Made by a program: the position numbers
Origin: a virus
Taxonomy: Duplodnaviria > Heunggongvirae > Uroviricota > Caudoviricetes
DNA: 10,146 bases
Direction: 5' to 3' (one strand)
IMG/VR virus record: IMGVR_UViG_2541047850_000007
Coordinates: 1 to 10,146 of that record
In this document: piece by piece, positions 6,001 through 10,146 of the stretch
Layout: the number at the start of each line of letters is the position of its first letter
Numbering within the stretch: the stretch's first letter is position 1

Positions 6001-9000
6001 CAGGTAAGCCAGTGGACCGGACAGAACGGAGAAACGCGGCAGGGCTGGCAGGTTATCGCAGACAGCGTAATCAGTGCCCGCGCGGCACGTCCAGGCGGGA
6101 ACAGACGCAAAACCACAGGCACACAGGGTAATCAGCCACCAGCGGGAGGCGATGACCCTTACGGTGATGATATTTCGTTCTGAGGGGGTGACGATGGTAC
6201 ATGACCGCATAGCGGAGGAACTGGAGGCGAAAGGCTTTTACCGGAGGGCGGCGGCGCGATGGGGTGAAGTCATGCAGCTGGTGGAGACAGACAAGGAACG
6301 GCATCACATCACGATGCGACGGCTGGAATGTTCAAGGAAGGCACAGAGGGCACCGGAGCCGCCGGATAATTTCGGAGACCTGAAAAAGGCAGTCGATCGC
6401 ACTTATGCCGAAATGGGTATAGATGGTGCTGGTGATGAAATATGGCGCAATTACCAGGACAGCTAATCAAACAGCCGGAGAAATCCGGCTTTTTTTGCAC
6501 CAGTTGAAACGGTATGGCGCATTACCGGGTTTTCGTCACGGTCAGGCATAGTTACTATCTGAAACAAACAGACACAACAGAGGAAAAAAACAATGCCGAT
6601 GAAATTTGATGAGATATTAAAACAGCGTGATAAATACCATGCTGACAACATGGAGACGATGAGCATCAATGATTACCGCGCATTCCTGGAGACGGGCGCA
6701 CTGATTGAAAAGGATCAGCATGGTTTTGTGAGATGTGCTCTATCCGGTGAAATGCTGGCGGTAAATCCTGAACAGATAGATGCATTGATAGAATTTCTGA
6801 AAGAGATCAGAGACTGAGCCAGCACACAGCACACATAGCCGGAGCAATCCGGCTTTTTTGCGCCCAAAAAAAGCCCGATAAGGTCAGAGGGTTCTTATCG
6901 GGCTTTTGCATATGAGGTTTTTGGATGCACTGGCGTTCGTGATCGGGATAATCATTTCATAATTTGCAACATAACTCAATATCATTGCATAAAATGCAAT
7001 TCTGATTATAATCAGGACTGGATAAACATCCAGTTATGATTTTTTTAGTCGAAGAGGAATTTCTTACTATGGCTGAAGAGAAAAAAGGCGGTGTTTCGGT
7101 GTACATAAGCCCCGAAATCGTGGAGGTGCTCAAGCAGCGCCACAAAAAAAACTATGAAGCTGGCGTTGCGGCTGGACTGGATCCGCTGATGACGCCGGAG
7201 CCGTCGATAGGTTCACTTGTACGCTCTTATTTACTTGCGGCGCTTGGGATGCATAAAAATTATGGGGGTGAATAATGGCAGGCAAAGCAACGGCACTTAA
7301 CACTAACCAGCTTTTCATGTACCTGAATCGCGGGGATATTGCGGATTTTAAATTCAGCCCTCTGTTTACCACGCTGTTTTTCCCGAACGTGGCGACATTC
7401 AGCACGCAAAACATCATGCTGGATACCCTGGACATTGAAGAAGTCACCATGTCGGCGTTTTGTTCGCCTATGGTGGGTAGCCAGGTTCAGCGCGATAAAG
7501 GGTACGAAACCAGCACAATCAAACCTGGCTACATGAAGCCAAAGCACGAAATCGATCCAACGAAAACCATCATGCGCATGGCTGGAGAAGATCCGGCACA
7601 GCTTAACGACCCTACCTATCGCCGTATGCGCCTGATTACTGGCAACATGCGCCGCCAGATAAACGCCATTAAGGCACGCGTGGAATGGCTGGCGGTGAAT
7701 GCGGTAACGACCGGAAAAAACATCATTGAGGGCGAAGGCATAGAACGCTATGAAATCGACTGGAAAATACCGGAAAACTGCATCATAGAGCAGGCCAAGG
7801 GTAAAAAATGGTCCGAGCAGGATAAAGACATGCACGACCCAATCTATGACATCGAGCTTTATGCTGATCAGGCTGGTTGCCCCGCAAACGTCATGATTAT
7901 GGGCGCTGAGGTATGGCGCACATTACGCAGCTTTAAAAAATTCCGTGAGCTGTACGATCTTTCCCGTGGTTCAGAATCCGCCGCCGAACTGGCCTGTAAA
8001 AACCTGGGCGAAGTGGTGAGCTTTAAAGGCTATCTTGGTGATCTGGCCCTTATCGTCTATTCCGGCAAATACACTGACAGCGATGGTACCGAAAAATATT
8101 TCCTTGAGCCTGATTTGCTGGTCCTGGGTAACACCAACAATAAAGGGCTGGTGGCCTATGGTGCGATTATGGAACAGGAAGCGGTAAGAACGGGCGCAAC
8201 GCAAAACATGTTTTACCCGAAAAACTGGATTGAAGACGGCGATCCGGCGATTGAGTACGTGCAGACACACAGCGCACCGCAGCCTGTTCCGGCAGATATT
8301 CGCAAATTTGTTACCGTCAAAATTGGTTAACGGTGGATTCTATGAACACTCCATACATTGAGTTATTTGCAGGCAGTCAGCAGGTATCAACGACGCTGGT
8401 ACATTTTGCCGCTGATGCTGGCGTTATTCAGGAATTTACCCCGCTGATGCTGGCGGACAATGGCGAGTTTAAGCCGTGGGATGGTCAGGAATCTGGCAAG
8501 GCTGTTTATCTGACCTCGTACCCCGTTGACACGTCGACGCAGAAATCAGCACAGTGCTATAAGACGGGGATATTCAATATCGCCGCCGTTAACTGGCCTG
8601 AGAGCGTCGACACCGATGCGAAAAAATGCGCCGCCTTTGCGGGTTCTGGCGTATCCGTTCAGCCGCTGGCCCGATAAGCAGGGGGAACGATGGCAACGAA
8701 TGAAAGCATCATGGCGCTACCGCTGGCGAGTAAATTTAAAGCCGAAGCGCGGGCAATGGCTGACAGAGGGTTATCAACCTACGAGGCCGTATATCAACTC
8801 AACAAACTGGAAGAACAGGACAAGCCGCGCGCTGATGCGATTATGGCGCTTCATGAACATAACGACTATCAGCCGCTGTTACGTGCAATGGCAAACGTGC
8901 CATGTATTAGCGTCGATAATGCTCGTGAAATCCTGAACATGACCATAGAGCAGGAGCGCCCAAAGGTTGCACCAGAGCTTACCGCAGCCTTTGAAAACTT

Positions 9001-10146
9001 TATGGACATGCACAGCCCGCAAGCCGTATCAGCTGGCATGGCGTACGATGGCAGAAACCAGGGCGATGACGGCGACATCGATCGCATACTGAAAACCATC
9101 TGAGACAAGGCCGGAGAAATCCGGCTTTTTTTTACGGGTCCTTTCCGGCATATGGACCCGTTACGGGGCGGCGACCTCGCGGTTTTTCGCTATTTATGAG
9201 CCTTTTCAGGGGGGTGGTGGTGGTTTTGTTGTTTGCTCTATCTTTATGAATAAAAAGGGAAAGATGCAAGCAATACACCAACCTGAAGCAGTAATTAAGT
9301 TGGTGTATTAATGAAATCGCACCTGATGAACAAAAAAAACATGGCTAAAAGCTGCCGTGTAAGTGCGACAGCGTTCGACAAGTGGGGAGTAACTCCCGTT
9401 GAGCGTAAAGGCCGTGAGGCGTTTTATGATGTTGCCAGCGTGATAGACAATAGGGTTAACAATGCAATTAGCCAGCTTACAAACGACAAAGGCGATATTG
9501 ACGATGATGAACTATTACGAGTCAGGATCAGATTACTGACAGCGCAGGCGGAGGCGCAGGAGCTTAAAAACGAGCGCGAACGAGGCGACGTTATTGATAC
9601 AGGGTTTTGCCTGTACGCGCTTTCAAAGCTGGCGAGCCAGATTTCTTCAATCATGGACAGCATCCCGCTTACTATGCAAAGGAGCTTTCCACACATTACC
9701 CCAGCCATGCTGGATGGGCTTAAAAGGGAAGTGGTTAAAGCCTGTAATGCCAGTGCCAGAGTTGCCGACAACCTCCCACAGATACTGGCTGATTACTTGA
9801 AAGAAACAACCGGAAACGTACCGGAAAAGTTGCAGCAGAATAAAGATAAGTAACGTAGTACGCTATGACTGAATCCGAAATACTGCGATTAATCCGCCGC
9901 GTCTCTGGAATCAGCCAGCAGGCTGACGAACAGACCACGCAGCCGGACAGCGTGACAGCCGAAAACTATGCGCGTGTGGTTGCTGAGGTGATGCGCCGTG
10001 ATGGTATCCAGCTTAATGATGTGGATATGCGCGACATACGGATCCGCGTTCTTGAAATGCTGGCCTACAATCGCCGCGTTGAGATGTATCGGGAGAAAGA
10101 AAAAATAACGTACCACTGGAAGAAGCCGGAGCGGTTACGGCGGTAA

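What the first reader, a model, noticed from the sequence alone, without database searches (positions are those of the whole stretch)
7036..10146. Satellite-type element carrying its own lambda-type capsid shell and cos/Nu1 packaging determinants but no visible portal, protease or large terminase
The integration/replication half (P4-type int, alpA, alpha-like primase with TGTTCACC iterons) is joined to a head module encoding homologs of lambda E, D and Nu1 plus a lambda-like cosN. Within the window there is no gpB (portal), gpC/Nu3 (protease/scaffold), gpA (large terminase), W, FI/FII or tail gene. The order is reversed relative to lambda (E before D, cos and Nu1 after the head genes), and the genes are tightly coupled (overlapping TAATG start, short gaps), so this is not a decayed lambda prophage fragment. 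The most economical reading is a satellite that builds its own, probably smaller, capsid shell and directs a helper's terminase to its own cos while borrowing the rest from a lambdoid helper. It differs from the canonical P4 solution (Sid/Psu/Delta) and, as far as I recall, from HK97-fold capsid-forming PICIs. I cannot confirm from sequence alone whether this arrangement is already described.
Basis: partly seen in the sequence, partly recalled or inferred. Interest (0 to 1): 0.9.

Follow-up and report, generated by a model that had tools for sequence, protein, structure and literature searches.

The report
Known E. coli phage satellite (PICI)
This is the packaging end of an already described type of E. 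coli phage satellite (a phage-inducible chromosomal island), so it is ordinary, and tests on its closest studied relative argue against it building its own small capsid.

Summary
Window 7036-10146 encodes lambda E-like, D-like and Nu1-like proteins and an exact lambda cosN. It has no portal, protease, large terminase or tail gene. One correction: the 137-aa ORF at 8690-9103 resembles the C-terminal part of gpC/Nu3, the scaffold.

The arrangement is already described. The window is a classical Gram-negative PICI of the EcCICFT073/EcCIIHE3034 family. Its layout of int, alpA, primase/ori, capsid gene and terS matches the "Type A" PICI of SatelliteFinder.

- The capsid protein is about 97% identical to PDB 3BQW, which is CFT073 c1499.
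- The PICI of strain IHE3034 was noted in 2018 to encode TerS. It has the same gene order at the same yljB/cspD-clpS site, with TerS 96%, Int 92% and capsid protein 95% identical.
- Compared with EcCICFT073, only a cosB-plus-specificity cassette differs. A full-length N15/lambda-type TerS replaces RppA.

Published work on EcCICFT073 found only phage-sized packaged DNA. Deleting the capsid or decoration gene changed neither transfer nor lambda interference. "Builds its own smaller shell" is therefore not supported.

The head-like genes are nevertheless under strong purifying selection (dN/dS 0.03-0.17), and their role is unresolved. Verdict: already known, low interest.

The parts
1..1239 (+). 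[quoted passage not shown]
   Evidence: Pfam Phage_integrase and Arm-DNA-bind_3; PHROG 1. It is 92% identical to the integrase of the IHE3034 PICI.
1649..1858 (+). AlpA-family regulator/excisionase
   Evidence: Pfam Phage_AlpA, E 1.8e-17.
3411..5243 (+). Primase/helicase (D5_N, DUF5906 and Pox_D5 domains)
   Evidence: PHROG 864 DNA primase, E 2.4e-192.
5258..5478 (.). Iteron cluster, the putative replication origin: 9 copies of TGTTCACC on both strands, directly 3' of the primase gene
   Evidence: The position matches the PICI ori described in PMC6092414.
7069..7275 (+). 68-aa protein of unknown function, first gene of the head-like operon. Its stop overlaps the capsid gene start (TAATG).
   Evidence: PHROG 3255. 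It is annotated at this position in four related islands. It has no phage homologue by tblastn.
7275..8330 (+). Lambda gpE-family major capsid protein homologue, the orthologue of CFT073 c1499 (PDB 3BQW)
   Evidence: Pfam PF03864, E 1.4e-49. PDB 3BQW, E 3.4e-231, about 97% identical. 43% identical to lambda gpE. At most 47% identical to any deposited phage. dN/dS 0.05-0.17.
8342..8677 (+). Lambda gpD / phage 21 SHP-family head decoration protein homologue, the orthologue of c1500
   Evidence: Pfam PF02924, E 3.7e-18. PDB 1TD0, E 5.9e-14. dN/dS 0.03-0.15.
8690..9103 (+). 137-aa protein, the orthologue of c1501, related to the C-terminal scaffold part of gpC/Nu3. It has no protease domain.
   Evidence: PHROG 53 'head maturation protease', profile positions 494-567 of 583, E 7e-10. 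37% identical over 83 aa to the ORF immediately upstream of the D homologue in phage 204576. That ORF matches lambda gpC residues 364-403. It is 93% identical to the CFT073 copy.
9107..9133 (+). Intrinsic-terminator-like hairpin plus T-run that ends the head-like operon
   Evidence: The same hairpin recurs at 6473 and 6837.
9134..9199 (+). Lambda-type cosQ-proximal region and cosN. The cohesive-end 12-mer GGGCGGCGACCT lies at 9166-9177.
   Evidence: Matches to phage 21 and PhiR5_1 cos. Conserved with EcCICFT073 cos1.
9200..9310 (+). Island-specific cosB. It is unrelated to the lambda, phage 21 and EcCICFT073 cosB sequences. It contains GGTGGTGGTGG, TTGTTGTTT and an 11-nt inverted repeat (9272-9282 / 9299-9309).
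   Evidence: It differs from the cosB of the IHE3034 island at only two of the aligned positions.
9311..9853 (+). Full-length Nu1-family small terminase (TerS), of the N15 gp1 type. It occupies the place of rppA in EcCICFT073.
   Evidence: Pfam PF07471; PHROG 57 over its full length. 46% identical to N15 gp1, 37% to lambda Nu1 and 35% to phage 21 gp1, with the C-terminal region aligned. No similarity to RppA and no PDB match to RppC. 96% identical to the IHE3034 copy.
9865..10146 (+). 93-aa protein of unknown function, the last gene. It is conserved in both TerS-type and Rpp-type islands.
   Evidence: PHROG 1561. 90% identical to the CFT073 copy.

Best explanation
The region is the morphogenesis and packaging end of a classical Gram-negative phage-inducible chromosomal island (PICI) of the EcCICFT073/EcCIIHE3034 family. 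It is a satellite of lambda-like cos phages, about 11.5 kb long, integrated at the 3' end of yljB between cspD and clpS.

Proposed life cycle:
1. A helper phage switches on AlpA. The island then excises with its own integrase and replicates from the iteron origin with its own primase. These steps are inferred from the family.
2. The concatemers carry a lambda-type cosN next to an island-specific cosB.
3. The island's full-length Nu1/N15-gp1-type TerS binds that cosB. Through its C-terminal region it recruits the helper's large terminase, so the helper motor cuts and packages island DNA instead of helper DNA (inferred). In EcCICFT073 the same position holds RppA, which does this job indirectly by pairing with the helper's TerS (shown in that element).
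4. DNA enters proheads built with helper portal, protease and tails. Four island copies come to about 46 kb, which fits a lambda-size head (inferred).

The E-like, D-like and Nu3-like genes form a conserved, selected operon. In the studied relative they are not needed for transfer or for lambda interference, and small capsids were not seen. They most likely co-assemble with, or modulate, helper capsid assembly in a helper-specific way and do not form an autonomous small shell. This last point is the weakest part of the explanation.
For: - Gene content and order match the published PICI definition of int, alpA, pri/ori, capsid and terS.
- The island in strain 23CRST038 (98.6% identical to the window over 94% of it) is bounded by yljB/cspD and clpS and has no other phage genes. 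Comparison with the empty K-12 site gives the core ATGATAGTTAT(C/T)TATCA and a length of 11.5 kb.
- The IHE3034 PICI, stated in PMC6092414 to encode TerS, has the same order and site. Its TerS is 96%, its Int 92% and its capsid protein 95% identical.
- The capsid protein is about 97% identical to PDB 3BQW/CFT073 c1499.
- Alignment with EcCICFT073 shows about 95% identity up to the end of cosN and again from the 93-aa gene. The swapped cassette lies between them at 9200-9860.
- The TerS is full length, including the C-terminal part that aligns with the lambda and N15 region. RppA matches only the N-terminal wHTH of the TerS profile.
- The head module occurs intact in 598 of 5,426 complete E. 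coli genomes and the TerS cassette in 769.
- dN/dS is 0.05-0.17 for the capsid gene and 0.03-0.15 for the decoration gene.
- No deposited phage has a capsid protein or TerS more than 60% identical. These are therefore satellite lineages and not recent captures.
Against: - No experiment exists for this element.
- The helper of TerS-type E. coli PICIs was not identified. The marked IHE3034 and 18098 islands transferred poorly or not at all after induction of resident prophages (Table 1 of PMC6092414).
- Binding of the island TerS to cosB and to a helper TerL is inferred from homology only. Its C-terminus is diverged and carries a 13-aa extension.
- Strong purifying selection on the head-like genes is hard to reconcile with having no phenotype. 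The accessory-modulator reading is a default and not a demonstrated function.
Confidence: 0.8

Rival explanations
1. The island builds its own, probably smaller, capsid shell from its E-, D- and Nu3-like proteins on a helper portal, and packages unit-length DNA into it. This would make it a half-way form between classical PICIs and capsid-forming PICIs.
For: - A coherent trio of scaffold-like, major capsid and decoration genes sits in one tightly coupled operon with its own terminator.
- The genes are intact in all five islands compared and under strong purifying selection.
- The lineage is distinct from every deposited phage.
- Only lambda, phi80 and one resident CFT073 prophage were tested as helpers.
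Against: - In EcCICFT073 with lambda, all packaged DNA was phage-sized.
- Deleting c1499 or c1500 changed neither transfer by the resident helper nor lambda interference (PMC6092414).
- The tetA marker used in those strains lies just after the c1501 stop codon, so the module was intact in the parent (primers in Table S6).
- A cat replacement of c1499 transferred at least as well.
- The island has no protease to remove a scaffold and no portal.
Confidence: 0.1
2. A decayed remnant of a lambdoid prophage that happens to retain E, D, Nu1 and cos.
For: All four features belong to lambda-type families. The cosN region is nearly identical to that of lambda and phage 21.
Against: - The gene order E-D-Nu3-like-cos-TerS is the reverse of lambda's Nu3-D-E.
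- The proteins are at most 47% identical to any phage homologue.
- All genes are intact and under purifying selection.
- The same 11-kb architecture recurs at several att sites, bounded by host genes, in hundreds of genomes.
- The left half is a PICI/P4-type integration and replication module.
Confidence: 0.02
3. A P4-like satellite that exploits a P2-type helper.
For: It has a P4-type integrase, AlpA and an alpha-like primase with iterons. SatelliteFinder notes that a typical P4-like element scores as a Type C PICI on these three genes.
Against: - No ORF matches Sid, Psu, Delta or Epsilon.
- The cos is lambda-type and exact, not P2/P4-type.
- The head genes belong to lambda E/D families.
- The element is near-identical in layout to experimentally defined PICIs mobilised by lambda and phi80.
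Confidence: 0.03

Closest known systems
EcCIIHE3034, the PICI of E. coli IHE3034 (Fillol-Salom et al. 2018, ISME J, PMC6092414)
   Same: - Same integration site, yljB/cspD-clpS.
- Same gene order: int, alpA, icd-like, DUF4222, primase, SSB, 68-aa gene, capsid, decoration, 137-aa gene, cos, TerS, 93-aa gene.
- TerS 96%, Int 92% and capsid protein 95% identical.
- Its cosB differs from the window's at only two of the aligned positions.
- The paper describes it as a TerS-encoding PICI.
   Different: - The window and its closest genomic relative, 23CRST038, lack the roughly 245-bp segment with a second, inverted cosN between terS and the 93-aa gene.
- The window also carries a PerC-family gene and a 74-aa gene that are not annotated in the IHE3034 island.
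EcCICFT073, the prototype E. coli cos PICI (PMC6092414; PMC6739421)
   Same: - The head-like operon (68-aa gene, c1499 capsid, c1500 decoration, c1501), cosQ/cosN and the last 93-aa gene are 90-97% identical at protein level.
- The overall architecture and size are the same.
   Different: - The packaging-specificity cassette differs. EcCICFT073 has its own cosB, RppA (144 aa, which pairs with helper TerS) and an inverted cos2. The window has a different cosB and a full-length 180-aa TerS with no detectable similarity to RppA.
- The integration site differs: roxA-phoQ in CFT073.
Capsid-forming PICIs, cf-PICI, e.g. EcCIEDL933 (bioRxiv 10.1101/2022.09.08.507074)
   Same: A PICI-type int/alpA/replication module, and satellite-encoded capsid and small terminase genes.
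   Different: cf-PICIs encode a complete head and packaging set: major capsid, protease, portal, head-tail connectors, HNH, TerS and TerL. They make small capsids and steal only tails. This element has no portal, protease, connectors, HNH or TerL.
SaPIbov5, a cos SaPI with the capsid-protein homologue Ccm (as cited in PMC6092414)
   Same: A satellite of cos phages that carries a helper-type cos site and a homologue of the helper's major capsid protein.
   Different: Ccm redirects capsid size and blocks the helper. In EcCICFT073 the capsid homologue showed no such phenotype. SaPIbov5 has no TerS of its own, and the two are unrelated in sequence.
Terminase small subunits and cos sites of phages N15, lambda and 21
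   Same: The island TerS is a full-length Nu1-family protein. It is closest to N15 gp1 (46%) and has the same shortened wing region. The cosN cohesive end is identical to lambda's.
   Different: The cosB is unrelated to lambda and phage 21 R3-I1-R2-R1. It shares only a TTGTTGTTT motif with the N15 R3 region, displaced by 9 bp. No cognate large terminase gene follows terS.
Helper-embedded PICI 11capE (Nielsen et al. 2023, PMC10111431)
   Same: A Gram-negative PICI of the same size and organisation with a lambda-E-family capsid gene. That paper states that a capsid gene is present in 21 of 29 reference Gram-negative PICIs.
   Different: [quoted passage not shown] This element sits in a chromosomal intergenic site and has terS.

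Membership tests
Classical Gram-negative PICI (Fillol-Salom 2018; SatelliteFinder Type A) | Tyrosine integrase at one end, with the other core genes transcribed in the same direction | tested here: met
   Int lies at 1-1239. All core genes are on the + strand.
Classical Gram-negative PICI (Fillol-Salom 2018; SatelliteFinder Type A) | AlpA (or MerR/Stl) regulator next to int | tested here: met
   Pfam Phage_AlpA, E 1.8e-17, at 1649-1858.
Classical Gram-negative PICI (Fillol-Salom 2018; SatelliteFinder Type A) | Primase/replicase module followed by an origin with repeats | tested here: met
   Primase at 3411-5243, followed by 9 TGTTCACC iterons at 5258-5478.
Classical Gram-negative PICI (Fillol-Salom 2018; SatelliteFinder Type A) | Capsid morphogenesis gene and small terminase homologue downstream of the replication module | tested here: met
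   PF03864 at 7275-8330 and PF07471 at 9311-9853. The order matches.
Classical Gram-negative PICI (Fillol-Salom 2018; SatelliteFinder Type A) | Size about 10-15 kb, no tail, lysis, portal or head-tail connector genes, and a dedicated att site | tested here: met
   The element is 11.5 kb between att cores in the closest complete genome. No forbidden gene families were found. The site is the same as for the IHE3034 PICI. The window itself lacks both att ends.
Classical Gram-negative PICI (Fillol-Salom 2018; SatelliteFinder Type A) | Helper-phage-dependent excision, replication, packaging, high-frequency transfer and helper interference | not testable with these tools
   This needs induction and transduction experiments. 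It has been shown only for the relative EcCICFT073.
Rpp-type packaging redirection (EcCICFT073; Fillol-Salom 2019) | An Rpp protein: about 144-153 aa, a wHTH plus dimerisation domain, and no TerL-binding C-terminus | tested here: not met
   The 180-aa protein shows no BLASTP alignment with RppA. There is no PDB hit to the RppC structure at E<=1. No other ORF in the window resembles Rpp.
Capsid-forming PICI (cf-PICI) | Satellite-encoded portal, prohead protease, head-tail connectors, HNH and large terminase | tested here: not met
   None was found in the window or in the complete related islands.
P4-like satellite | Sid, Psu, Delta and Epsilon genes and a P2-type cos | tested here: not met
   No matching families were found. 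The cosN is the exact lambda sequence.
Lambda Nu1-family small terminase | Full-length match to the family profile above its curated threshold, including the C-terminal region | tested here: met
   PF07471 scores 81.1 bits against a cut-off of 30. PHROG 57 covers residues 1-178. The alignment with lambda, phage 21 and N15 extends to the C-terminus. cosB and TerL binding cannot be tested here.
Lambda gpE major capsid and gpD decoration families | Profile match above the curated threshold and full-length alignment to the solved lambda and phage 21 proteins | tested here: met
   PF03864 scores 169 bits and PF02924 scores 66 bits. PDB matches are 7VI9 at E 6e-80 and 1TD0 at E 6e-14. Assembly into shells was not tested.

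The most novel reading that the evidence does not exclude
With a natural helper other than lambda, phi80 or CFT073 prophage 4, the conserved trio of Nu3-like scaffold, E-like capsid and D-like decoration proteins assembles satellite-specific, possibly small, shells on a stolen portal. TerS-type classical PICIs would then be a functional intermediate between capsid-remodelling satellites and capsid-forming PICIs.
Probability: 0.08. Interest if true: 0.6.

Novelty: already known. Interest (0 to 1): 0.15.

Why it matters
The finding adds no new kind of element. It is one more copy of a PICI family present in roughly a tenth of complete E. coli genomes.

Two points remain of modest value.
- Classical E. 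coli PICIs keep a lambda-type capsid, decoration and Nu3-like operon under strong purifying selection. This work links the 137-aa gene (c1501) to the scaffold part of gpC/Nu3. Published deletions of the capsid and decoration genes gave no phenotype, so the module's function is still open.
- The family swaps cosB together with its recognition protein (full TerS or Rpp) as one cassette. The TerS-type islands have no identified helper. Testing them would show whether a cos satellite can bypass the helper's TerS altogether.

Tried and rejected
1. I suspected the published negative results for c1499 and c1500 were obtained in islands whose Nu3-like gene c1501 was disrupted by the c1501::tetA marker. 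The primer sequences in Table S6 of PMC6092414 place tetA immediately after the c1501 stop codon and before the terminator hairpin. c1501 is therefore intact, and I dropped the idea.

2. I first took a 17-bp direct repeat, AATGGTGTAGTTAATTT, as the att core. Comparison with the empty K-12 site shows the true core is ATGATAGTTAT(C/T)TATCA. The 17-mer lies inside both arms.

3. I tested whether the Nu1-like protein is a long Rpp variant. It shows no similarity to RppA and has no PDB hit to RppC.

4. A direct BLASTP of the 137-aa protein against lambda Nu3 was negative (E 3.7). The link to gpC/Nu3 is transitive, through the phage 204576 homologue and PHROG 53.

5. These searches of the right-half proteins and the window found nothing:
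- NCBIfam.
- PADLOC.
- Rfam at gathering thresholds.
- tRNA scan.
- tblastn of the 68/79-aa protein against phages.

6. Literature searches for c1499, 3BQW, EcCIEDL933 and PICI with cryo-EM found no later paper in the held library that assigns a function to the lambda-type capsid genes of classical PICIs.
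Full report
**What is in the sequence**

The right third of the window holds six co-oriented genes and a cos site.
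- A 68-aa gene at 7069-7275. The longest ORF starts at 7036.
- A 351-aa lambda gpE-family capsid protein at 7275-8330. Its ATG overlaps the preceding stop as TAATG.
- A gpD-family decoration protein at 8342-8677.
- A 137-aa gene at 8690-9103.
- A terminator-like hairpin at 9107-9133.
- A lambda-type cos region.
- A 180-aa Nu1-family small terminase at 9311-9853.
- A 93-aa gene at 9865-10146, which ends exactly at the window end.

The Pfam matches are far above their curated thresholds: Phage_cap_E at 169 bits, HDPD at 66 bits and Phage_Nu1 at 81 bits. The capsid protein is 43% identical to lambda gpE over 327 residues, and the decoration protein is 37% identical to gpD.

The cohesive-end 12-mer GGGCGGCGACCT is exact at 9166-9177. 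The first 34 bp match lambda except at one position, after which the sequence diverges completely. At the DNA level, this cos stretch is the only part of 7036-10146 that matches any of 50,697 phage records.

The left part of the window has a tyrosine integrase, AlpA, an Icd-like gene, DUF4222, a D5-type primase, nine TGTTCACC iterons directly after the primase gene, an SSB and a PerC-family regulator. Nothing in the window matches a portal, protease, large terminase, W, FI/FII, tail or lysis family.

**One correction to the observation**

The 137-aa protein is not an orphan.
- It matches the C-terminal part of PHROG 53, "head maturation protease" (profile positions 494-567 of 583, E 7e-10).
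- It is 37% identical over 83 residues to the ORF immediately upstream of the D homologue in Escherichia phage 204576.
- That ORF aligns with lambda gpC residues 364-403, which lie within the Nu3 scaffold reading frame.

A direct comparison with lambda Nu3 is not significant, so the link is transitive. The island therefore carries a scaffold-like remnant without a protease domain. The order E, D, Nu3-like is the reverse of lambda's Nu3, D, E.

**Extent of the element**

The closest complete genome is E. coli 23CRST038, 98.6% identical to the window over 94% of it. There the same genes sit between yljB/cspD and clpS with no further phage genes.

Aligning both junctions with the empty K-12 site gives an imperfect 17-bp core, ATGATAGTTAT(C/T)TATCA, and an element of 11.5 kb. 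A 17-bp repeat that I first took for the core lies inside both arms. The 1.2 kb beyond the window end has no annotated gene and no convincing ORF.

The refuting condition of portal, protease or large terminase within the element boundaries is not met.

**What it is**

It is a classical Gram-negative PICI.
- The capsid protein is about 97% identical to PDB 3BQW (E 3.4e-231). The 3BQW sequence carries the substitutions of the CFT073 copy, which makes it c1499 of EcCICFT073.
- Fillol-Salom et al. [quoted passage not shown] They state that, of four marked E. coli islands, those of IHE3034 and 18098 "encode TerS" (PMC6092414).
- I fetched the IHE3034 island. It is at the same yljB/cspD-clpS site and has the same gene order. 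Its TerS is 96%, its integrase 92% and its capsid protein 95% identical to the window, and its cosB differs at only two of the aligned positions.
- SatelliteFinder defines PICIs by five core components: integrase, regulator, primase-replicase, capsid morphogenesis and small terminase. [quoted passage not shown]
- Nielsen et al. note a capsid gene in 21 of 29 reference Gram-negative PICIs (PMC10111431).

**How it differs from the prototype**

Aligned with EcCICFT073, the window is about 95% identical from the decoration gene through the 137-aa gene, the terminator, cosQ and cosN up to position 9199. Identity resumes at the start of the 93-aa gene. The stretch between, 9200-9860, is unrelated.

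In EcCICFT073 that interval holds its own cosB, rppA and an inverted second cos. Here it holds a different cosB and a full-length TerS.
- The TerS has no detectable similarity to RppA and no PDB match to RppC.
- RppA matches only the N-terminal wHTH of the TerS profile, whereas the window protein matches the whole profile.
- The window TerS is closest to N15 gp1 (46%), shares N15's shortened wing, and aligns with lambda and N15 through the C-terminal region. That region is proposed to bind TerL (PMC9026076).

Both cassette types occur with the same head operon and with different replication modules and att sites. The family is therefore mosaic, and cosB travels with its recognition protein.

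**Prevalence and selection**

The capsid-plus-decoration segment is present full-length in 598 of 5,426 complete E. coli genomes. The cosB-TerS cassette is present in 769.

In five islands, all four head-operon genes are intact. Pairwise dN/dS is 0.05-0.17 for the capsid gene, 0.03-0.15 for the decoration gene, and mostly 0.13-0.33 for the 137-aa gene (highest pair 0.55).

No deposited phage encodes a capsid protein or TerS more than 60% identical; the best is 47%. These are old satellite lineages under selection. They are neither recent captures nor decaying remnants.

**Mechanism**

The following is shown for the family in EcCICFT073:
- helper-dependent induction through AlpA;
- int-dependent excision;
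- replication dependent on pri and ori;
- cos-dependent packaging by lambda, phi80 and a resident phage.

For this element I infer the following. The island TerS binds the island cosB and recruits helper TerL to the lambda-type cosN, diverting the helper's packaging motor to island concatemers. This is the SaPI-like own-TerS solution in a cos system, where EcCICFT073 uses Rpp plus helper TerS. Four copies of 11.5 kb make about 46 kb. From established knowledge of lambda packaging limits, that would fit a lambda-size head. It is also consistent with the phage-sized DNA seen for EcCICFT073.

**The capsid claim**

Published experiments do not support this.
- With lambda, all packaged DNA was phage-sized.
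- Deleting c1499 or c1500 altered neither lambda interference nor transfer.
- An island in which cat replaces c1499 transferred well.

I checked whether the tetA marker named c1501::tetA had already broken the module. The primers place it just after the c1501 stop codon, so it had not.

The function of the head-like operon remains open. No later paper in the held library resolves it. My default reading is helper-specific modulation of, or co-assembly with, helper capsids. I give the own-shell reading about 10%.

**Verdict**

Novelty: already known. Interest is low (0.15). The remaining value lies in the unexplained selection on the capsid module and in the uncharacterised helper of TerS-type cos PICIs.

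Noticed in passing
window 6473-6490, 6837-6854, 9107-9128: The same terminator-like hairpin, AGCCGGAG(A/C)AATCCGGCT followed by a T-run, occurs three times. It follows the PerC gene, the 74-aa gene and the 137-aa gene, which divides the right half into separate transcription units. The third copy is conserved in EcCICFT073.
   Followed up: partly
window 9853-9865; L010 12187-12444; L006 11578-11834; L002 3094-3374: The IHE3034, O157:H7 493/89, MS15046 and CFT073 islands carry a second, inverted cosN between terS/rpp and the 93-aa gene. The window and the 23CRST038 island lack that segment of about 245 bp and have a single cosN.
   Followed up: partly
window 9213-9236: The island cosB contains GGTGGTGGTGG followed by TTGTTGTTT. 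The latter also occurs in the N15 R3 region (N15 bp 52-60) but lies 9 bp further from cosN here. EcCICFT073 cos1 has the complementary CCACCACCAC at the corresponding place. These are possible recognition elements, but they could be chance.
   Followed up: no
window 9272-9282 and 9299-9309: A perfect 11-nt inverted repeat, AATACACCAAC / GTTGGTGTATT, lies immediately upstream of the terS start codon. It could be a TerS binding site, an operator or an RNA hairpin covering the ribosome-binding region.
   Followed up: no
L001 8840-8985 and 20190-20265: Both arms of the integrated island carry repeated TGTTCG(T/C) motifs and the 17-mer AATGGTGTAGTTAATTT, which is tandem at the right end. A similar GGTGTAGTTAATGGTGTAGTTAATT lies upstream of int in the CFT073 island, according to the published primer. 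These are probably arm-type integrase sites.
   Followed up: partly
L006 5650-7050 versus window 3411-5243: The O157:H7 493/89 island has the same head operon and TerS but a RepA-family helicase in place of the D5-type primase, and it sits at a different att site (roxA-phoQ). This shows module shuffling within the family.
   Followed up: no
window 6194-6466 and 5773-6183: The island carries a PerC-family regulator (Pfam E 3.9e-43) and its own SSB. PerC-like genes of other PICIs have been linked to regulation of the LEE virulence island (PMC11773190).
   Followed up: no
window 6986-7013: A perfect -10 hexamer, TATAAT (7008-7013), with a weak -35 (TTGCAT, 16-nt spacer) lies about 55 bp upstream of the head-like operon, after two hairpins. 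It is a candidate promoter for the operon. I found it by eye; the consensus scan did not report it.
   Followed up: no
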